A DNA stretch of 64,000 nt from Minisyncoccota bacterium (GTDB lineage: Bacteria; Patescibacteriota; Minisyncoccia; Phycocordibacterales; JAACPR01). Location of the stretch: the NCBI GenBank assembly GCA_041674225.1, contig JBAYWG010000002.1:34841-98840 (forward strand). The letters are read 5' to 3'. A program made the translations under genes and the position numbers. Every line of letters begins with the position of its first letter. The first letter of the stretch is position 1. The notes under the pieces were generated by a model. It made no database searches and had not been told where the DNA came from. It worked only from the letters and a program-made list of their open reading frames with translations. Shown here piece after piece: positions 37,405 to 53,112 of this stretch.

Positions 37405-37478
37405 TGCTCCCCCGGCAGGATTCGAACCTGCGACCCATCGCTTAACAGGCGATTGCTCTACCGCTGAGCTACAAGGGA
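37405..37478 (-). tRNA. tRNA-Asn (anticodon GTT)
   Basis: Minus strand TCCCTTG-TA-GCTCAGCGGTAGAGC-A-ATCGC-CTGTTAA-GCGAT-GGGTC-GCAGGTTCGAATCCTGC-CGGGGGA-G; cloverleaf with U1-A72 and discriminator G as in E. coli tRNA-Asn. Confidence 0.85.
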
Positions 37479-43342: not shown

Positions 43343-44356
43343 ATGGGATTTTTCACACCAAAATTAGGTATCGATTTAGGAACTGCTAACACCCTTGTTT
43401 TTGCACCTGGAAGGGGAGTTATCTTGAATGAACCATCTGTTGTGGCTGTTTCAGAACAAGACAATAAAATCTTGGCCGTGGGTAATGAAGCTAAAGAAAT
43501 GATTGGTAGAACTCCTGAAAGTATTGTGGCGTATCGACCGATGCGTGATGGTGTAATTGCTGATTATCGTGTGACAGAAGCGATGCTTAGTTATTATTTT
43601 TCAAAAGCTCTAGGTAAATGGAATATTTGGAAACCAGAAGTAATGGTGAGTGTGCCAGCAGGTGTGACTTCGACAGAACGTCGAGCTGTAATCGAAGCTG
43701 CTATTAAAGCTGGAGCAAAAAATGCATACGTGGTGAAAGAACCGATTCTTGCTGCTATCGGTGCTGGAATTCCAATTCATGAAGCGCAAGGTCACATGGT
43801 GGTAGATATCGGAGGAGGAACAACTGACGTCGCTGTGATTTCTTTAGGAGGAATTGTTGCTTCTACTTCTGTGAAAGTTGCCGGAAATAAAATTGATCAA
43901 GCAATAATTGATTACATTAAAAAAACTTTCAATCTTGCGATCGGAGATAAAACTGCAGAGCAGATAAAAATAAAAGTTGGTTCAGCCGTTTTTCTAGAAG
44001 AAGAATTGGAAATGATTATTAAAGGAAGAGATTATCTAACAGGTCTTCCGCGTTCTACAAGTATAAAAACAAATGAAATTGTAAAAGCAATAAGTCGTGA
44101 ACTTCGAGAAATGATTAAAGCGATTAAAGATGTGTTGCAAGAAACTCCACCTGAATTGGCTGCAGATATTATTGATCACGGAATTACGATGACAGGAGGT
44201 TCTTCAATGCTCCGGAATCTTCCAGAACTTGTTTATCGTCGAACAGGTGTGAAAGCACAACTCGCAAAAGATCCTCTATATTGCGTGGCAAAGGGAACCG
44301 GAATTGCTTTGAACCATTTGGATACTTATAAGAAGACAATAATCACTAAACGATAA
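43343..44356 (+). CDS. mreB: rod shape-determining protein MreB (paralog 1, stand-alone)
   Basis: LGIDLGTANTLVF...NEPSVVAV; actin-fold motifs. Confidence 0.85.
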   Translation: MGFFTPKLGIDLGTANTLVFAPGRGVILNEPSVVAVSEQDNKILAVGNEAKEMIGRTPESIVAYRPMRDGVIADYRVTEAMLSYYFSKALGKWNIWKPEVMVSVPAGVTSTERRAVIEAAIKAGAKNAYVVKEPILAAIGAGIPIHEAQGHMVVDIGGGTTDVAVISLGGIVASTSVKVAGNKIDQAIIDYIKKTFNLAIGDKTAEQIKIKVGSAVFLEEELEMIIKGRDYLTGLPRSTSIKTNEIVKAISRELREMIKAIKDVLQETPPELAADIIDHGITMTGGSSMLRNLPELVYRRTGVKAQLAKDPLYCVAKGTGIALNHLDTYKKTIITKR

Positions 44357-44358
44357 AC

Positions 44359-44491
44359 ACACAGAAAATTACTAATTCACAGACGCGCGTTCGAGAATTT
44401 TTAAATGCTTCGCATTCAAAAATCTCTCGCCGCTACAGGCTCGGCCTTGAAGGGCCTGCGCAGTGTCTGTGAATTAGTAATTTTCTGTGTG
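44359..44491. repeat. 28-bp perfect inverted repeats flanking a 77-bp GC-richer core (MITE-like element or long hairpin RNA)
   Basis: acacacagaaaattactaattcacagac ... gtctgtgaattagtaattttctgtgtgt. Confidence 0.5.
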
Positions 44492-44765
44492 TTTGTACTT
44501 TAATTAAATTGTTATAAAAGAAAATGAGCTCTGTCGGTGTGAAAACCGACAGAGCTCGCTCAAACTTGATTTAACTCAAGTTTGATCTTAACGTCCGGTG
44601 CAGTCAGTGCCTCATTTTGTGTCTTTCGACTACCGGTCTACGAAACAAGTTCGTAGTTAGAGCTGTTGAATTTTATAATACACTTTTTGTTAAAAAGCAA
44701 GTAATGTGGTTTTAAATAAAACAGGACACACTCTAGTGAGTGTGTCCTTGTGCTTGTGTTGTGTT

Positions 44766-45035
44766 TTAAAACAACTGGATACCCATTAATGGTATTTTAA
44801 AAACACAGCAAATCCCAAATGAAATCACAAATACTGTCCCCACAGTTTTGCCTGGAGTATAAGTTTTTTTTGCGTAAGTTTCAAAAAGTCTTAACCTTGA
44901 TTTGGAAAAAAAATCAATGCCAAGACACACTATTGCTCCAAACATCCATACTGCATATAGCAAGAACGAAGTGTTAATTGCCAGCTCACATAGTAGTAAA
45001 AGAACATCTTTTTTCATTTCAATATATAAACACAA
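44766..45035 (-). CDS. small membrane protein, hypothetical
   Basis: 89 aa, 2-3 TM helices. Confidence 0.3.
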   Translation of the reverse strand: MCLYIEMKKDVLLLLCELAINTSFLLYAVWMFGAIVCLGIDFFSKSRLRLFETYAKKTYTPGKTVGTVFVISFGICCVFKIPLMGIQLF

Positions 45036-45083
45036 TATTAGATTTATGTCAATTAAACATAATCTATTTCATACTGCTATAAT

Positions 45084-45791
45084 TTGAGCATGCAAAGTTT
45101 AATTGACTCATATAAAAACACAGGCACATTGCATCATGCGTATGTTGTGGAAGGCGAGACGGATCACGCTTATAAAAACGTATGTGATTTTTGCGAGAAG
45201 GATTTAAATTTTCAGATAAAGGCCAATCCACATTTTATTTACGAAGCATACGATAAATTTTTGGTTGATGACGCACGGCGAATTCGAGAGTTGCAAATGA
45301 ATAAAACAAAAGAAGGTCAAAGAAAGATTTTTGTAATCTCTTTTAATTTTATTACAGAGCAAGCACAAAATTCTTTGCTAAAAGTTTTGGAAGAACCAAC
45401 CAAAGGAACTCACTTTTTTATTTTGACACCATCTTCAGAAGTTTTTCTAGATACAATTCGTTCGCGCGTTTCGATTCTTAGTGCAATCGGTACAACAGAA
45501 AATTCTGAGGCATTAGATTTTCTTTCTCTGAGTGTACCTAAAAGAATTAAATTTATTGCTAATTTAGTGCAAAAAATAAAAGATGAAAAAGCTAGTAAAT
45601 TTGATGCGATCAAATTGATTAAAGGTTTAGAAATAGAAATTCATAAAAAAGCAGTTTCAAATTCTGCTACTCCAGAAGAAAGAAAAGAATATTTTAAAAA
45701 ATTAAAAAACATCAATAAAGTTGGGGATTATTTAAATGACAATTCTGCTTCTGTAAAACAAATTCTCGAATATACTTCGACCATAATTTAA
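45084..45791 (+). CDS. holB: DNA polymerase III delta'-like clamp-loader subunit (no P-loop)
   Basis: LHHAYVVEGE resembles HAYLFxG of HolB; AAA+ lid-like region. Confidence 0.45.
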   Translation: MSMQSLIDSYKNTGTLHHAYVVEGETDHAYKNVCDFCEKDLNFQIKANPHFIYEAYDKFLVDDARRIRELQMNKTKEGQRKIFVISFNFITEQAQNSLLKVLEEPTKGTHFFILTPSSEVFLDTIRSRVSILSAIGTTENSEALDFLSLSVPKRIKFIANLVQKIKDEKASKFDAIKLIKGLEIEIHKKAVSNSATPEERKEYFKKLKNINKVGDYLNDNSASVKQILEYTSTII

Positions 45792-49298: not shown

Positions 49299-50390
49299 AT
49301 GGTAAATGAAAAGAAAGAAAAATGGAGCTTTAAAGGCCTTTTGGATAAAATCTGGCGCTCTCTTTCTAATGATATTGGTATCGATTTAGGTACCGCAAAT
49401 ACTCTTGTTTATGTTCCTGGGAAAGGTGTGGTTTTGAATGAACCTTCTGTTGTGGCTGTTAACACAAAGACTGGTCAAGTGGTAGCGGTGGGATCTGAAG
49501 CAAAAAGAATGCTAGGACGGACACCTGGTCACGTTCAAGCGATACGTCCACTTGTTGACGGAGTTATTTCTGATTTCGAAGTGACAGAAGAAATGATTAG
49601 TTACTTGGTGAAGCGAGCTATTAAAGAACATAAAACTATTTTAGGTCCGAGAGTTGTTGTGGGTGTGCCTTCTGGTGTGACAAACGTGGAGTCTCGAGCT
49701 GTGAGAGATGCAGTAATAAATGCGGGAGCAAGAAAAGTTTATATTGTAGAAGAACCAACTGCAGCTGCGATTGGAATTCGTCTTCCGATAAATGAACCAG
49801 TTGGAAATATGGTGATTGATATTGGAGGAGGTACTTCTGATATTGCTGTAATTTCTTTGGGAGGAATTGTTCGTTCAAAAAATTTAAAGATTGCCGGAGA
49901 TAAATTAAATAATGATATTTCCTCATATATTCGAAGTGAATTTAAAATTTTAATTGGTGAAAGAACTGCTGAAGAAATAAAAATTCAACTAAGCAATATG
50001 GTGCAAGGCGAACAACCTTTGGAAGCTCCTATTAGAGGAAGAGATCTTGTTACAGGATTACCAAGAGAAGTTATTATCACCGACTCTGATATACGAGAAG
50101 CTATTGCGCATTCAATTGGCGCATTGGTAGAAGCTACAAAAGAAGTTTTGGAATCAACTCCACCAGAAATTGTTGCGGATATTATGAAGAGAGGAATTTT
50201 TCTTGTGGGAGGTGGAGCACTAATAAAAGGTCTAGATGTGTTGCTTGAATCAGAATTGCAGATTCCTGTGTATGTAGCACAAGAACCACTAACCGCAGTT
50301 GCGCGAGGTACTGGTGTGATTTTAGAAAACCTAGAAGAGTATAAAGAGGCTATAATGGTAGATGATGATGCATTACCGAAAGAAAAATAA
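49299..50390 (+). CDS. mreB: rod shape-determining protein MreB (paralog 2, in mreBCD-pbp2 operon)
   Basis: IGIDLGTANTLVYVPGKGVVLNEPSVVAV. Confidence 0.85.
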   Translation: MVNEKKEKWSFKGLLDKIWRSLSNDIGIDLGTANTLVYVPGKGVVLNEPSVVAVNTKTGQVVAVGSEAKRMLGRTPGHVQAIRPLVDGVISDFEVTEEMISYLVKRAIKEHKTILGPRVVVGVPSGVTNVESRAVRDAVINAGARKVYIVEEPTAAAIGIRLPINEPVGNMVIDIGGGTSDIAVISLGGIVRSKNLKIAGDKLNNDISSYIRSEFKILIGERTAEEIKIQLSNMVQGEQPLEAPIRGRDLVTGLPREVIITDSDIREAIAHSIGALVEATKEVLESTPPEIVADIMKRGIFLVGGGALIKGLDVLLESELQIPVYVAQEPLTAVARGTGVILENLEEYKEAIMVDDDALPKEK

Positions 50391-51138
50391 AAAATCATAT
50401 TTACTTTTCTTTGTCGCTGTTATTGTAATTTTTTTATTGGGATTTTTGAGTATAAAGTGGCCACAAGCTATTGCAAGAACAATTTCAAATCCTATTTACA
50501 CGGTAAAAAATTTAGTTTCAAAACCTTTTGTTGCGTTAGGAACTTCTTTTCAAGACAAAAAGGAATTAGAAGAAAAGATTTTTACATTAGAAGAAGAATT
50601 AACAAAATTAAAAATTTCTCTCATTGCACAAAATTTTGTAAATTCTCAAATTGAAGATTACAATTTGGAATTAGAAAAAAATTCTGGTGGTGCGATTTCA
50701 AAAGTTTTAAATCGTCCTCCTTTTTCTCCGTACGACACACTGCTTATCTTGAAAGGAGAAAATCAAATTGAAGTTGGAGATTTAGTTTTTATTTATGGTC
50801 TTTATATTGGAGACATTGTAAGTGTTGATACTTATACTGCAAATGTGAAGCTGCGTTCTTCATCTGGAGAAAAGACATTAGTGCGACTGGCAGATATTGA
50901 AATCGAAGCCGAAGGAAAAGGGGGTGGACAATTTATCATTAAGATTCCTAAAGATTTGGAATTAAGTATTGGAGATGCTGTAATGGTTCCTGGATTGAAT
51001 TATGCTTTGATCGGTTCTGTTGGGCAGATTAAAGAAGATCCTATTGCAACCTTTAAAACTGTTTATTTCTCAATTCCTGTGGCGTTTCAAAACATGAATT
51101 TTGTATCAGTGGTTAAAAAATACAGTGTGTTAGAATAG
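50362..51138 (+). CDS. mreC: rod shape-determining protein MreC
   Basis: N-terminal TM, coiled coil, beta-rich C-terminus; position after mreB. Confidence 0.6.
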   Translation: MMMHYRKKNKKSYLLFFVAVIVIFLLGFLSIKWPQAIARTISNPIYTVKNLVSKPFVALGTSFQDKKELEEKIFTLEEELTKLKISLIAQNFVNSQIEDYNLELEKNSGGAISKVLNRPPFSPYDTLLILKGENQIEVGDLVFIYGLYIGDIVSVDTYTANVKLRSSSGEKTLVRLADIEIEAEGKGGGQFIIKIPKDLELSIGDAVMVPGLNYALIGSVGQIKEDPIATFKTVYFSIPVAFQNMNFVSVVKKYSVLE

Positions 51139-51145
51139 TGTCACT

Positions 51146-51403
51146 ATGTTTTGGAGGGTTATTTCAGTTATATTTTTAATTATTTGCATATTCACATTAC
51201 CGTGGTGGATAAATATTATATTTATGGTGTGTGCGGCTTTTTATTTTAAAAGTTTTTATGAAGTAGTTGGACTGGGATTGTTGATGGATTCTATTTTTGG
51301 AAGTGTCGCAATCTTTGATAATTTTTCTTATTTTTTTACATTAGTATTTTTAGTTTCAGTTTTCTTGATTAATAAGGTTAGAGAAAAATTAATCATGTAT
51401 TAA
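51146..51403 (+). CDS. mreD: small membrane protein, probable MreD
   Basis: 85 aa polytopic; synteny between mreC and pbp2. Confidence 0.4.
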   Translation: MFWRVISVIFLIICIFTLPWWINIIFMVCAAFYFKSFYEVVGLGLLMDSIFGSVAIFDNFSYFFTLVFLVSVFLINKVREKLIMY

Positions 51404-51408
51404 ATAAT

Positions 51409-53112
51409 ATGTTTCAAAAAAGAATTAACAAATTCAAACAAAAAAGATATTCAGCCAAAGACATTGCATTGGACGAAGTTTTTTTGGATTCTCACAACTT
51501 ACCAGATTATGATACAAATCAATTAGAAGGTCGTATTGAAAAACCAATTTCAAAAAAAGTTGTTAGTGTGATTTTTTTAGTTTTTATATTTATTTTTCTT
51601 TCTTTTCTTTTTAAAATTTGGAATTTGCAGATTGTGAATGGGCAAAGTTTTGCAAAAATTAGTGAAGAAAACAGTTTGAGACATACTTTGATTTTCTCTG
51701 ATCGTGGAATTGTTTATGACAGAAATCATGTGCCTTTGATTTGGAACGAAAATACAGATGAGGATATAGATTTTAGTTTTAGAAAATATATCGATAAACC
51801 AGGCTTTGCTAACTTGTTGGGTTATGTTAAATATCCTAAAAAAGATTCATCAGGGTTTTATTACACAGAATCTTTTGAAGCTCTCGGAGGTGTGGAACAA
51901 TATTTTGATGAAATAATTTCTGGAAAAAATGGATTGAAGATTATTGAAACAAACGCAACAATGAACGTGGTGGGAGATAATACAATCCAAGATCCTGTTT
52001 CTGGACAAACACTTTCTTTAAGTATTGATGCTGAACTACAATCAAAGCTTTATTCAACAATTGCAGATATTGCAAATCAAGTAGGATTCAAGGGTGGATC
52101 TGGTGTGATCATGGATGTGAACACAGGAGAAGTTTTGGCAGTGACATCGTATCCAGAATTTGATTCAAATGTTTTAACTGAAGGGTCAGACAAAGAAAAA
52201 ATAAATTCATTTCTTAATGATTCAAATAATCGTTTTCTAAATCGCGCGACAAAAGGTTTGTATACTCCTGGATCGATTATGAAACCATTCGTTGCACTTG
52301 GAGCTTTGAATGAAGGAGTAATCTCTCCTGAAAAAGAAATTTTGAGTGTAAAAAATATGGAAGTGCCAAACCCATACGATCCCTCGAACCCATCTATTTT
52401 TACGGACTGGAAAGCTCATGGGTACGTAAATGTTTATGGTGCGTTGGCATATTCTTCAAACGTTTATTTTTATCAAGTGTCTGGTGGATACACTCCAACA
52501 GGACAAAAGGGAATTGGAATCACAAAACTAGAGGAATATTTTAGAGCGTTCGGTTTTGGTGATGATATTAATGATGAGTTTTTGGGAGGAAAGTCTGGAA
52601 CAATTCCAAATCCAAAATGGAAGATAGAAAATTTTGATGGAGATGATTGGCGACTCGGTGATACTTATTTCACAGCAATTGGACAATACGGAGTGCAGGT
52701 GACGCCGATGCAAATTGCGCGAGCTGTATCTGCGATTGCAAACGGAGGAAAATTAATTGAACCAACTGTGAAGCTTGACGATTCTGTAACTATTTTAAAA
52801 AACATAGATAACATTTCACCTCAGAATTTTGACATTATTCAAAAAGGAATGAGAGATGCTGTGGTGTATGGAACAGCAAGAGGTCTTAATTTGAGTAATG
52901 TGGAGATAGCTGCAAAGACTGGTACGGCTGAGCTCGGTGTTTCTAAGGAGAGTGTGAACTCTTCGGTTGTCGGATTCTTTCCTTATCAGGAGCCAAAATA
53001 CGCTTTTGTGGTGATGCTGGAGCAAGGAAGCAGAAGTAATCTAATCGGAGGAGTTGCTGTCATGAGACAGGTTTTAGACTGGATAAACATATATAGACCC
53101 GAATATTTCTAA
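51409..53112 (+). CDS. mrdA: penicillin-binding protein 2 (elongasome transpeptidase)
   Basis: SIMKP (SxxK), SSN, KTGTA motifs. Confidence 0.8.
   Translation: MFQKRINKFKQKRYSAKDIALDEVFLDSHNLPDYDTNQLEGRIEKPISKKVVSVIFLVFIFIFLSFLFKIWNLQIVNGQSFAKISEENSLRHTLIFSDRGIVYDRNHVPLIWNENTDEDIDFSFRKYIDKPGFANLLGYVKYPKKDSSGFYYTESFEALGGVEQYFDEIISGKNGLKIIETNATMNVVGDNTIQDPVSGQTLSLSIDAELQSKLYSTIADIANQVGFKGGSGVIMDVNTGEVLAVTSYPEFDSNVLTEGSDKEKINSFLNDSNNRFLNRATKGLYTPGSIMKPFVALGALNEGVISPEKEILSVKNMEVPNPYDPSNPSIFTDWKAHGYVNVYGALAYSSNVYFYQVSGGYTPTGQKGIGITKLEEYFRAFGFGDDINDEFLGGKSGTIPNPKWKIENFDGDDWRLGDTYFTAIGQYGVQVTPMQIARAVSAIANGGKLIEPTVKLDDSVTILKNIDNISPQNFDIIQKGMRDAVVYGTARGLNLSNVEIAAKTGTAELGVSKESVNSSVVGFFPYQEPKYAFVVMLEQGSRSNLIGGVAVMRQVLDWINIYRPEYF

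What the first reader, a model, noticed from the sequence alone, without database searches (positions are those of the whole stretch)
44357..44765. Hairpin-rich 400-bp non-coding stretch containing a 28-bp perfect inverted repeat (MITE-like element or structured RNA)
Directly after mreB, 44359-44386 and 44464-44491 are perfect 28-bp inverted repeats (acacacagaaaattactaattcacagac / gtctgtgaattagtaattttctgtgtgt) enclosing a 77-bp GC-richer core. Four more strong hairpins follow: gagctctgtcgg...ccgacagagctc; tcaaacttga...tcaagtttga; tacgaa...ttcgta; aggacacactc...gagtgtgtcct. No ORF of note is present. A perfect long inverted repeat suggests a recently mobile MITE or a long double-stranded RNA hairpin. 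The downstream hairpins could be an sRNA or a multi-terminator.
Basis: seen in the sequence. Interest (0 to 1): 0.55.

Follow-up and report, generated by a model that had tools for sequence, protein, structure and literature searches.

The report
Conserved capped hairpin behind mreB
Right after the cell-shape gene mreB, about 140 bases fold into a long perfect stem capped by three small hairpins; three related uncultured bacteria keep this fold through matched changes on both sides of the stem, so it is a maintained structured element, most likely part of the mreB message, and not a recently jumped mobile element.

Summary
The inverted repeat is real, with slightly different coordinates. Perfect 30-bp arms lie at 44355-44384 and 44465-44494 around an 80-nt, GC-richer core that folds into a four-way junction.

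It is single-copy in about 72 kb of its own genome, a Candidatus Paceibacterota MAG. It matches nothing in Rfam 15 or in the phage, plasmid and viral collections.

Two related species (loci L090-L092 and L095) carry an ortholog at the same place behind mreB.
- The core is 96% and 91% identical, while four-fold degenerate sites of the neighbouring genes are only 50-60% identical.
- Nine base pairs of the outer stem changed on both sides, and a 1-bp deletion is matched on the opposite arm. No pair is broken.

This rules out a freshly inserted MITE. It points to a long-maintained structured element, most likely the 3'-end RNA of the mreB transcript (insulation, processing or stability) with a protein- or RNA-recognised cap. 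A domesticated REPIN/Correia-like DNA palindrome remains the main rival.

The other hairpins mostly belong to a convergent minus-strand unit: a small membrane-protein ORF and two minus-strand terminators.

Relatives also carry dispersed families with the same architecture next to stop codons. Kinship with those families is unproven.

The parts
43343..44356 (+). mreB (337 aa). Its stop codon overlaps the first two pairs of the hairpin.
   Evidence: Pfam MreB_Mbl, E = 8.7e-136; ORF list
44355..44494 (+). The whole capped-hairpin element: long outer helix plus a three-hairpin core.
   Evidence: Orthologs at L090 283-417 and L095 3148-3280. The covariance model (CM) R3, built from the three orthologs, scores them 135-155 bits on the + strand and finds nothing else in 1.1 Mb.
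44355..44390 (+). 5' strand of the outer helix. The distal 28-30 nt pair as perfect Watson-Crick. The proximal part, GCGCG(U), contains two invariant G-U pairs.
   Evidence: helix 1 has 34 pairs; 9 changed on both sides, 0 on one side only; 99% of cells are paired.
44393..44428 (+). P2: AT-rich 15-bp hairpin (GAGAAUUUUU.AAUGC UUC GCAUU.AAAAAU.CUC). Only the loop, one mismatch position and one bulge vary between species.
44429..44440 (+). P3: GCC-GCUACA-GGC hairpin. The stem is invariant; L095 has a 1-nt loop deletion.
44443..44456 (+). P4: GGCCU-UGAA-GGGCC hairpin. It reads GGCC-CUUAAA-GGCC in L095.
44458..44494 (+). 3' strand of the outer helix.
44526..44557 (-). 13-bp perfect hairpin followed on the minus strand by AUUUUCUUUU. 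It is terminator-like for the convergent minus-strand unit. L095 has an equivalent A-tract plus hairpin at the same relative place.
44560..44656 (-). Stretch between the two minus-strand terminators, with two further hairpins (44560-44585 and 44638-44656). It is either read-through 3' UTR or a candidate sRNA. No clear promoter and no homolog were found.
44723..44748 (-). 11-bp hairpin plus a U-rich tail, 17 nt after the orf83 stop codon. It is terminator-like for orf83.
44705..44807 (+). Possible second capped-stem element: a 12-bp outer stem around the 44723-44748 hairpin. It is the best match in the window to R2, the covariance model built here for a dispersed family in relatives. It overlaps the 3' end of orf83. 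Inconclusive.
   Evidence: R2 gives 25.7 bits, rough E about 0.001. Generic hairpins reach 11-17 bits with R2. With R3, plain terminators also reach E about 0.001.
44766..45017 (-). orf83, a small two-TM-like hydrophobic protein (MFA7193877.1). It is part of the lineage-variable filling of the mreB-holB spacer, not of the hairpin element.
   Evidence: Called as a gene; NCBI name; no homolog in the protein index; syntenic 76-aa homolog in L089, 35% identity, E = 1e-5.
45047..45083 (.). Divergent promoter region. TTGACA lies on the minus strand (45052-45047), conserved in L086, L089, L094 and L095. TGCTATAAT lies on the plus strand (45075-45083) in front of holB.
   Evidence: plus-strand site 45054-45083, with TG; sequence comparison.
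45090..45791 (+). holB-like DNA polymerase III delta' gene (context).
   Evidence: Pfam DNA_pol3_delta2

Best explanation
The element is a vertically inherited, selectively maintained structured element at the 3' end of mreB in one lineage of Candidatus Paceibacterota. It is most likely read as RNA on the mreB strand, as the end of the mreB transcript.

A helix of about 34 bp, of which the outer 26-30 bp are perfect, closes a four-way junction that carries three small hairpins.

Inferred role: the very stable helix forms the 3'-end structure of the mreB message. It would stop or pause transcription, block 3' exonucleases, and/or offer a double-strand-specific processing site. In doing so it insulates mreB from the convergent minus-strand unit and from the separately promoted holB. 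The sequence-conserved cap is presumably recognised by a protein or another RNA.

The perfection of the stem comes from compensated change. Besides selection, hairpin-templated correction during replication may keep it perfect.

Shown here: the fold, its conservation, the compensation, the fixed position, and single copy in the DNA sampled. Inferred: that it is transcribed, that it acts at the mreB 3' end, and that something binds the cap.
For: Orthologs
- Orthologs sit directly behind mreB in L090-L092 (three independent assemblies) and in L095. Identity to the window is 91% over 150-153 nt and 87.5% over 120 nt.
- The core differs at 3 of 80 positions in L090 and 7 of 80 in L095.
- Four-fold degenerate sites of mreB and rrf are only 50-60% identical between the same genomes.

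Covariation
- In the outer helix, 9 of 34 pairs changed on both sides and 0 on one side. 98% of cells are paired. 0 of 500 shuffles and none of the slid controls reach this.
- A 1-bp deletion in one arm of L095 is matched by a deletion in the other arm.
- All three sequences fold on their own into the same architecture.

Strand
- Two G-U pairs next to the junction are invariant on the + strand and would be C-A mismatches on the other strand.
- The + strand folds 10 kcal/mol better over the region.

Position
- The element starts 2 nt before the end of the mreB stop codon in the window, directly after it in L090, and 15 nt after it in L095.
- In L090 it fills the spacer up to the holB TGCTATAAT box.
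- Relatives without it (L086, L089) have an ordinary terminator hairpin at that very place.

Divergence and copy number
- Element divergence follows host divergence. HolB identity is 79% for L090 and 71% for L095.
- It is single-copy. R3 finds only the three orthologs in 1.1 Mb. A filters-off search of the window finds no second copy.
Against: - There are no expression data, so transcription of the element is inferred from its position only.
- No consistent U-tract follows the 3' arm, and the terminator scan does not call it on the + strand. It is therefore not a canonical intrinsic terminator.
- The outer helix has no G-U pair and no mismatch in 26-30 bp in any of the three species, and several double changes are transversion pairs. 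That is unusual for purely RNA-level selection and suggests a DNA-level process.
- The distribution is patchy. Sister lineages L086 and L093 lack it, as do L089, L094, L097, L003 and L004. Vertical inheritance therefore needs several losses.
- Nothing shows what the conserved cap binds.
- No RNase III signature was seen in the DNA sampled, but that covers only a small part of the genome.
Confidence: 0.5

Rival explanations
1. A REPIN/Correia/ERIC-like palindromic mobile element. It would be a non-autonomous DNA repeat propagated as a single-strand hairpin, which either landed at, or became fixed (domesticated) at, the mreB 3' end. Any RNA hairpin would be a by-product.
For: - The anatomy matches: about 140 bp, 28-30-bp terminal inverted repeats, a structured core and an intergenic location. 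Correia elements and REPINs look like this, and compensatory changes are common in REPIN hairpins (PMC2649163; PMC3116915).
- Relatives carry dispersed families with the same architecture, including two or more copies within 16-21 kb (L056, L064, L066, L055).
- One such element shows presence/absence between species that are 91% identical in mreB (L043 versus L040).
- In those families the stems are almost purely Watson-Crick, with G-U as rare as A-C (7 versus 6), which points to DNA-level pairing.
- The distribution of the window element among sister lineages is patchy.
Against: - No second copy exists in about 72 kb of the same genome or in 1.1 Mb of relatives.
- There is no target-site duplication.
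- The element sits at the same site in three species, with divergence that tracks the host.
- The core is under purifying selection.
- The arm 20-mer is absent from 185,579 species-representative genomes apart from one chance hit, and arm and core are absent from IMG/VR.
- There are no phage or plasmid matches.
- No transposase is nearby.
- The match to the dispersed-family model R2 is only 15.8-19.8 bits, against 11-17 bits for generic hairpins.
Confidence: 0.22
2. A free-standing small non-coding RNA of about 80-140 nt. It would be cut out of the mreB 3' UTR through the long stem and would act in trans or as a protein-bound particle. The stem would serve only as a processing handle.
For: - The core is more conserved than the flanking genes.
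- It forms a compact four-way junction with invariant G-U pairs.
- The distal stem varies freely in sequence so long as it pairs, as processing stems do.
Against: - No promoter is seen in or just before the element.
- Nothing in Rfam 15 resembles the core.
- The element is missing from most close relatives, so it is not an essential RNA.
- No associated protein gene co-occurs with it in the three loci.
Confidence: 0.15
3. A plain bidirectional terminator, or a neutral palindrome tolerated in a repair-poor genome and kept perfect only by hairpin-templated (quasipalindrome) correction. The cap would have no function.
For: - It lies between convergent transcription units in the window and in L095.
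- Relatives have ordinary terminators at the same spot.
- These genomes hold many long perfect palindromes.
- Template-switch correction of imperfect inverted repeats is a known mutational process (PMC7202029).
Against: - A neutral loop would not stay 91-96% identical while four-fold sites are 50-60% identical.
- In L090 there is no convergent unit, yet the element is kept.
- This genome's ordinary terminators are short, GC-rich hairpins with U-tracts.
Confidence: 0.08
4. An invertible DNA switch (inverton), or another site-specific recombination site whose arms are homogenised by recombination.
For: - The perfect inverted repeats evolve in concert.
- Logan contigs of one run break inside the core.
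Against: - No promoter-like site lies in the 80-bp core.
- The core has the same orientation in all three species and in every assembly seen.
- An 80-bp spacer is short for known invertases (own knowledge).
- The distal arms differ between species, so they are not a conserved recombinase site.
- No recombinase gene is nearby.
Confidence: 0.03

Closest known systems
[quoted passage not shown]
   Same: Extragenic. Two inverted arms around a spacer form a long hairpin in ssDNA or mRNA. Compensatory changes keep the hairpin (PMC3116915). They often sit just 3' of genes.
   Different: REPINs have conserved arms and a less conserved spacer, occur in tens to hundreds of copies, and go with a RAYT transposase. 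Here the cap is the conserved part and the distal arms vary. Only one copy was found, and no RAYT could be looked for.
Correia repeat-enclosed elements (CREE/NEMIS) of Neisseria and other bacterial MITEs such as ERIC
   Same: About 70-157 bp with roughly 26-bp terminal inverted repeats and a conserved core. When transcribed, the hairpin is an RNase III substrate and alters the stability of neighbouring mRNAs (PMC2649163).
   Different: CREE are present at over 100 copies, insert at TA with duplication, and carry promoter and IHF motifs. The window element shows no duplication and no extra copies, and it sits at one orthologous site in three species.
Intrinsic (Rho-independent) terminators and 3'-end stabilising hairpins
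   Same: Same position as the ordinary terminator hairpins of relatives (L086, L089). A very stable hairpin immediately after the stop codon.
   Different: The helix is three to four times longer, AT-rich rather than GC-rich, and carries an 80-nt branched, sequence-conserved cap. There is no consistent U-tract.
RNase III processing stems, such as those flanking rRNAs or between phage T7 early genes (own knowledge)
   Same: A long, nearly perfect duplex formed by sequences that flank a structured RNA. The duplex sequence is free to vary so long as pairing is kept.
   Different: No cleavage data exist and no rnc gene was seen in the sampled DNA. The enclosed RNA is unknown.
Dispersed 'capped-stem' family defined here (model R2) in other Paceibacterota
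   Same: A long, perfectly paired outer stem of variable sequence around an AT-rich hairpin and then GC-rich hairpin(s). It starts from 4 nt before the end of the upstream gene's stop codon to 34 nt after it and is usually co-oriented with that gene.
   Different: The window element scores only 19.8 bits against R2, and its orthologs 15.8-17.5, at the upper edge of generic hairpins. Its second-hairpin region differs, and it is single-copy.

Membership tests
MITE | Terminal inverted repeats on a short non-coding element | tested here: met
   30-bp perfect arms; 140-bp element; no ORF longer than 32 aa
MITE | Target-site duplication flanking the inverted repeats | tested here: not met
   The flanks are ...CGAT(AA) on the left and TTGTAC... 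on the right. No direct repeat is seen in any register, in the window or in L090/L095.
MITE | Several copies at unrelated sites in one genome | tested here: not met
   One copy in the 64-kb window plus the 8-kb extension. R3 finds only the orthologous copies in 1.1 Mb. The rest of the MAG could not be read.
MITE | A parent insertion sequence or transposase with matching ends | not testable with these tools
   The genome beyond the window is not available. No transposase is among the neighbours.
REPIN / REP | Conserved REP arms, many copies, and a RAYT gene in the genome | tested here: not met
   The arms are the variable part and the cap is conserved. Single copy. RAYT presence is untestable.
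Any Rfam 15 family | Score at or above the family's gathering threshold | tested here: not met
   No hit at gathering score in the window. With permissive E-value searches of the window, of the core alone and of the L095 ortholog, only generic long-hairpin (plant and animal miRNA precursor) models match, far below threshold.
Intrinsic terminator | Short GC-rich stem followed directly by a U-tract on the transcribed strand | tested here: not met
   Not called on the + strand. The arms have GC 0.30. The 3' flanks are TTGTACTTT, ATTAAGATTT and CTTAAATTTTTTTTT.
Intrinsic terminator (the other hairpins, 44526-44557 and 44723-44748) | Stem plus U-tract | tested here: met
   Both are called on the minus strand, with 13 and 11 pairs followed by ATTTTCTTTT and GTTTTATTTA.
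   Window element 19.8 bits, L090 17.5, L095 15.8. True members score 55-90 bits and generic hairpins 11-17.
Integron attC site | R''/R' boxes (RYYYAAC ... GTTRRRY), an unpaired central spacer and extrahelical bases (own knowledge) | tested here: not met
   The arms carry no such boxes, and the helix is perfect with no bulges.
Inverton | A promoter inside the invertible segment, both orientations observed, and a recombinase nearby | tested here: not met
   No promoter-like site in the core. One orientation in all assemblies and species. No recombinase among the neighbours.
tRNA / tmRNA-like | Detected by ARAGORN or Rfam | tested here: not met
   Only the tRNA-Asn at 37406-37478 is found.

The most novel reading that the evidence does not exclude
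The mreB hairpin may be one member of an undescribed, phylum-wide class of 'capped-stem' elements in Paceibacterota. These have sequence-conserved multi-hairpin caps enclosed by long, always perfectly Watson-Crick stems whose sequence turns over quickly. They are planted at or within a few bases of stop codons. In some genomes they are dispersed in several copies (R2 family, L064 family, L066/L074 family); in others they are fixed at one gene. Such a class would be either a new type of persistent intragenomic replicator, REPIN-like but with the roles of arms and centre inverted, or a new kind of RNA 3'-end or processing signal for these reduced genomes.
Probability: 0.3. Interest if true: 0.75.

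Novelty: new variant of a known kind. Interest (0 to 1): 0.6.

Why it matters
Very little is known about non-coding RNAs and repeat elements in the Candidate Phyla Radiation. Here is a compact element that matches no Rfam family. Its conservation is stronger than that of the neighbouring genes, and its stem covariation is textbook-clean. It is attached to the main cell-shape gene.

It gives a concrete target for metatranscriptomics and for in-vitro RNase or protein-binding tests.

The always-perfect stems raise a mechanistic question: is this selection, or hairpin-templated correction? These repair-poor genomes may answer it.

If the link to the dispersed families in relatives holds, it would define a new class of stop-codon-associated elements.

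Tried and rejected
- Rfam at gathering and at permissive thresholds, on the window, on the core alone, on the L095 ortholog and on the relatives' family: nothing but generic miRNA-precursor-like hairpin matches.
- tRNA/tmRNA scan: nothing in the region.
- Second copies in the window by pattern, blastn, inverted-repeat scan, nhmmer and covariance model: none.
- Arm 20-mer against 185,579 species genomes: one chance hit in a Ferruginibacter MAG.
- Arm and core patterns against IMG/VR: nothing.
- The 751-bp spacer against phage and plasmid collections: nothing.
- blastn and tblastx of the spacer against 80 MreB-anchored metagenome loci: nothing. The orthologs turned up only after searching with the faster-evolving HolB.
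- Replication origin or terminus: no skew change at the site.
- Sequence similarity between the window core and the cores of other long-inverted-repeat elements: none above shuffles.
- Homologs of orf83 in the protein index: none.
- RNase III signature motif in the sampled DNA: none, which is uninformative.
- A local RNALfold scan of all loci timed out and was replaced by an inverted-repeat finder.
- Two look-ups intended to extend the window on the left found no record.
- Retron, attC, inverton, type I toxin-antitoxin and SRP/6S readings were considered and dropped. There is no RT gene, no R boxes, no promoter or recombinase, orf83 and the element occur independently of each other (L089 versus L090), and Rfam gives no match.

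Full report
OBSERVATION

The repeat is there. The quoted 28-mer matches at 44357-44384 (+) and 44465-44492 (-) and nowhere else in the window, with none expected from shuffles. Perfect complementarity runs for 30 bp (44355-44384 / 44465-44494). It takes in the last two bases of the mreB stop codon and continues imperfectly to 38 nt. The 80-nt spacer has GC 0.525, against 0.30 for the arms and 0.346 for the window. The four further hairpins are at 44526-44557, 44560-44585, 44638-44656 and 44723-44748. The stretch folds 13.8-14.8 standard deviations better than shuffles. It is the only long inverted repeat of this kind in the 64 kb.

ANATOMY

On the + strand the element forms one helix of about 34 bp. 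The outer 28-30 bp are perfect. The inner GCGCG(U)/(U)GCGC.AGU part carries two G-U pairs and one bulged A. This helix closes a four-way junction with three hairpins:
- P2, 44393-44428: AT-rich, 15 bp.
- P3, 44429-44440: GCC-GCUACA-GGC.
- P4, 44443-44456: GGCCU-UGAA-GGGCC.

CONTEXT

The window comes from a Candidatus Paceibacterota MAG, from a contig of 106,604 bp. The gene order is priA-like(-) / mreB(+) / holB(+) / rrf(+) / M50 peptidase(+). This order is conserved in 80 metagenome loci fetched with MreB.

In most of those loci mreB and holB are 0-100 nt apart. L003, at 97% MreB identity, has 44 nt, and L004 about 40 nt. The window has 727 nt there. None of this spacer matched anything in those loci, in phages, in plasmids or in IMG/VR.

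Besides the hairpin element, the spacer holds a minus-strand unit:
- a TTGACA box at 45052-45047;
- an 83-aa hydrophobic ORF at 45017-44766, which has no homolog in the protein index but has a syntenic 76-aa homolog in L089 (35% identity, E = 1e-5);
- a terminator-like hairpin 17 nt after its stop codon (44748-44723);
- a second, stronger terminator-like hairpin at 44557-44526.

Both hairpins are called on the minus strand only. Most of the 'hairpin-rich' appearance downstream of the inverted repeat therefore belongs to a convergent transcription unit and not to mreB.

THE DECISIVE RESULT

MreB is too conserved to sort close relatives, so I searched with HolB and fetched contigs of the nearest homologs.

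Two further species carry the element at the same place. The first is represented by L090, L091 and L092, three independent assemblies, with HolB 79% identical to the window. The second is L095, with HolB 71% identical.
- In L090 the element starts right after the mreB TAA and fills the spacer up to the holB TGCTATAAT box.
- In L095 it starts 15 nt after the stop codon. As in the window, it is followed about 30 nt later by an A-tract plus a hairpin that reads as a minus-strand terminator.

Identity to the window is 91% over 150-153 nt for L090 and 87.5% over 120 nt for L095. The 80-nt core differs at 3 positions in L090 and 7 in L095. Four-fold degenerate sites of mreB and rrf between the same genomes are only 50-60% identical. 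The core is therefore under purifying selection.

In the outer helix, 9 of 34 pairs changed on both sides and none on one side only. 98% of all cells are standard pairs. No shuffle out of 500 and no slid control reaches these values. A 1-bp deletion in the 5' arm of L095 is matched by a 1-bp deletion in the 3' arm. Each ortholog folds into the same architecture on its own.

A covariance model of the three sequences (R3) scores them 135-155 bits on the + strand and 36-54 on the - strand. It finds nothing else in 1.1 Mb of relatives. With filters off it finds nothing else in the window except plain terminators.

WHAT THIS EXCLUDES

A perfect repeat was taken as a sign of recent transposition. 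Here the repeat is perfect because every change has been compensated over a divergence at which silent sites are near saturation.

There is no target-site duplication. There is no second copy in about 72 kb of the same genome. No transposase lies nearby. The site is the same in three species, and element divergence tracks host divergence. 'Recently mobile MITE' is not supported.

Other readings are also excluded:
- An inverton is unlikely. The core has no promoter, one orientation is seen everywhere, the spacer is only 80 bp, and the distal arms vary.
- It is not a canonical terminator. The stem is AT-rich and no consistent U-tract follows it.
- It matches no Rfam 15 family, and no tRNA or tmRNA is detected there.

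MOST LIKELY MECHANISM (INFERRED)

The element lies on the mreB strand, at or within 15 nt of the stop codon. Relatives L086 and L089 have an ordinary terminator hairpin at exactly that spot. holB has its own extended -10 promoter just downstream. Two G-U pairs are invariant on the + strand.

I therefore read it as the 3'-end structure of the mreB transcript. A very stable helix would halt or pause RNA polymerase, block 3' exonucleases, and/or be cut by a double-strand-specific RNase. It would insulate mreB from the convergent unit and from holB. The sequence-conserved cap implies a specific partner, a protein or an RNA, that remains unknown.

A variant of this reading is a small RNA released from the 3' UTR by cleavage in the stem.

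WHAT DOES NOT FIT NEATLY

The outer helix has no mismatch and no G-U pair in 26-30 bp in any of the three species, and several double changes are transversion pairs. Selection against a single mismatch in so long a helix should be weak. A mechanical process that copies one arm from the other, namely template switching at quasipalindromes (PMC7202029), may be what keeps it perfect. That process acts on DNA hairpins.

The distribution is also patchy. The element is present in the window, L090 and L095. It is absent from their nearest sisters L086 and L093, and from L089, L094, L097, L003 and L004. This requires several losses.

Both points keep a domesticated REPIN/Correia-like DNA palindrome alive as the main rival.

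RELATIVES CARRY SIMILAR THINGS

A scan of the 80 loci for long inverted repeats around a 25-150-nt spacer found 33. About 13 lie in the mreB-holB spacer, often starting within a few bases of the stop codon. About 6 lie just after rrf or holB. Several form families:
- L056 has two copies, one after mreB and one after rrf. Their cores are 98% identical, but the outer 9 bp of the stem differ and are self-complementary in each copy. Both are flanked by TCGCTC direct repeats.
- L064 has two copies with a compensated CCAG/CTGG to CCGG/CCGG change.
- L066 and L074 share an element after mreB, with different outer stems.
- A wider family was captured by a covariance model (R2). It covers L056, L064, L066, L027, L026, L043 and L055, with one more member in L095, and members score 55-90 bits. 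It has an AT-rich hairpin and a GCGCCGUCGCGC hairpin inside long stems of unrelated sequence. 14 of 24 consensus pairs show double changes. 9 of 11 members are co-oriented with the upstream gene and lie from 4 nt before the end of its stop codon to 34 nt after it. In this family G-U pairs are as rare as A-C (7 versus 6). The family is not in Rfam.

The window element scores 19.8 bits with R2, and its orthologs 15.8-17.5. Generic hairpins score 11-17. Kinship is therefore open. A second candidate in the window (44705-44807, 25.7 bits) is also inconclusive, because hairpin-rich sequence inflates these E-values.

COMPARISON WITH KNOWN SYSTEMS

The closest known systems are REPINs/REP (PMC3116915), Correia elements and other bacterial MITEs (PMC2649163), intrinsic terminators, and RNase III processing stems. 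The element shares the hairpin anatomy, the extragenic 3' position and compensatory evolution with the first two. It fails their defining features: copy number, conserved arms and target duplication. It shares position with terminators but not their form. It is best described as a new variant of the 3'-flanking structured or palindromic element, with the conserved part in the cap instead of the arms.

VERDICT

The MITE reading is rejected and the structured-element reading is upheld and sharpened. This is a previously uncatalogued, conserved element of unknown exact function. Its covariation is unusually clean, and it may be linked to a broader, undescribed class in Paceibacterota. Interest is 0.6.

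Noticed in passing
window 44766-45017 (-); L089 6912-7142 (-): orf83 (NCBI MFA7193877.1, hypothetical) has no homolog in the 5.8-billion-protein index. However, a 76-aa protein in the same position and orientation in L089 is 35% identical over 51 aa (E = 1e-5). It looks like a fast-evolving small two-TM protein wedged between mreB and holB. It occurs independently of the hairpin element.
   Followed up: partly
window 45047-45052 (minus-strand TTGACA); the same box in the mreB-holB spacers of L086, L089, L094 and L095: A minus-strand promoter-like box about 40 nt upstream of holB is conserved in five relatives. It points into the spacer. Downstream of it there is an ORF in the window and in L089, but no ORF in L086, L094 and L095. 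L094-L096 carry repeated GTAGCGC...AGCGCTT motifs there, which suggests a possible sRNA.
   Followed up: no
L056 6150-6261 and 7971-8084; L064 9985-10076; L066 17385-17503 and 14115-14192 (-); L027 1761-1844 (-); L026 6864-6973; L043 6335-6419 (-); L055 1168-1254 and 5400-5485; L095 13611-13719: A dispersed family (model R2) not present in Rfam. A conserved AT-rich hairpin plus a GCGCCGUCGCGC hairpin sit inside long, perfectly paired stems of unrelated sequence, mostly starting a few bases from the stop codon of a co-oriented gene. The two L056 copies have 98%-identical cores but different outer stems. Three elements are flanked by TCGCTC direct repeats.
   Followed up: partly
L064 7893-8009 and 10143-10245; L066 11020-11201 and L074 1467-1633; L031 4731-4855; L059 1307-1438; L055 3303-3532: Further unrelated long-stem, branched-core elements. 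Many lie directly after mreB. Some occur in two copies per locus or are shared between species, with compensated stem changes. The mreB 3' flank is a hot spot for such structures across the phylum.
   Followed up: partly
L020 16722-16761; L034 15092-15129; L038 3867-3904; L041 15561-15600; L049 8841-8890; L055 3345-3400; L064 17744-17779: Perfect palindromes of 36-56 bp with no spacer. These are unusual for bacteria and suggest tolerance of, or active perfecting of, palindromic DNA in these genomes.
   Followed up: no
window 44400-44409 (ends of Logan contigs L001 and L083, run SRR6484325): Two contigs of the same run are each 100% identical to the window. One stops and the other starts inside the element's core, overlapping by only 10 nt. 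This looks like a coverage gap at the apex of the P2 hairpin and not a repeat-induced break. Other assemblies read through.
   Followed up: partly
window about 49299-53100: A second mreB paralog (363 aa), followed by mreC, a small ORF and a PBP2-type transpeptidase, lies 5 kb downstream of the first mreB. The mreB that carries the hairpin is therefore a stand-alone copy.
   Followed up: no
L066 5273-5549 (-): A group I intron hit above the Rfam gathering score (70.2 bits) in a relative's locus.
   Followed up: no
L043 6257-6453 versus L040: Two species are 91% identical in mreB. They differ by about 150 nt between convergent genes, and the extra DNA includes an R2-family element. This is a presence/absence polymorphism consistent with gain or loss of such elements on short time scales.
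   Followed up: partly
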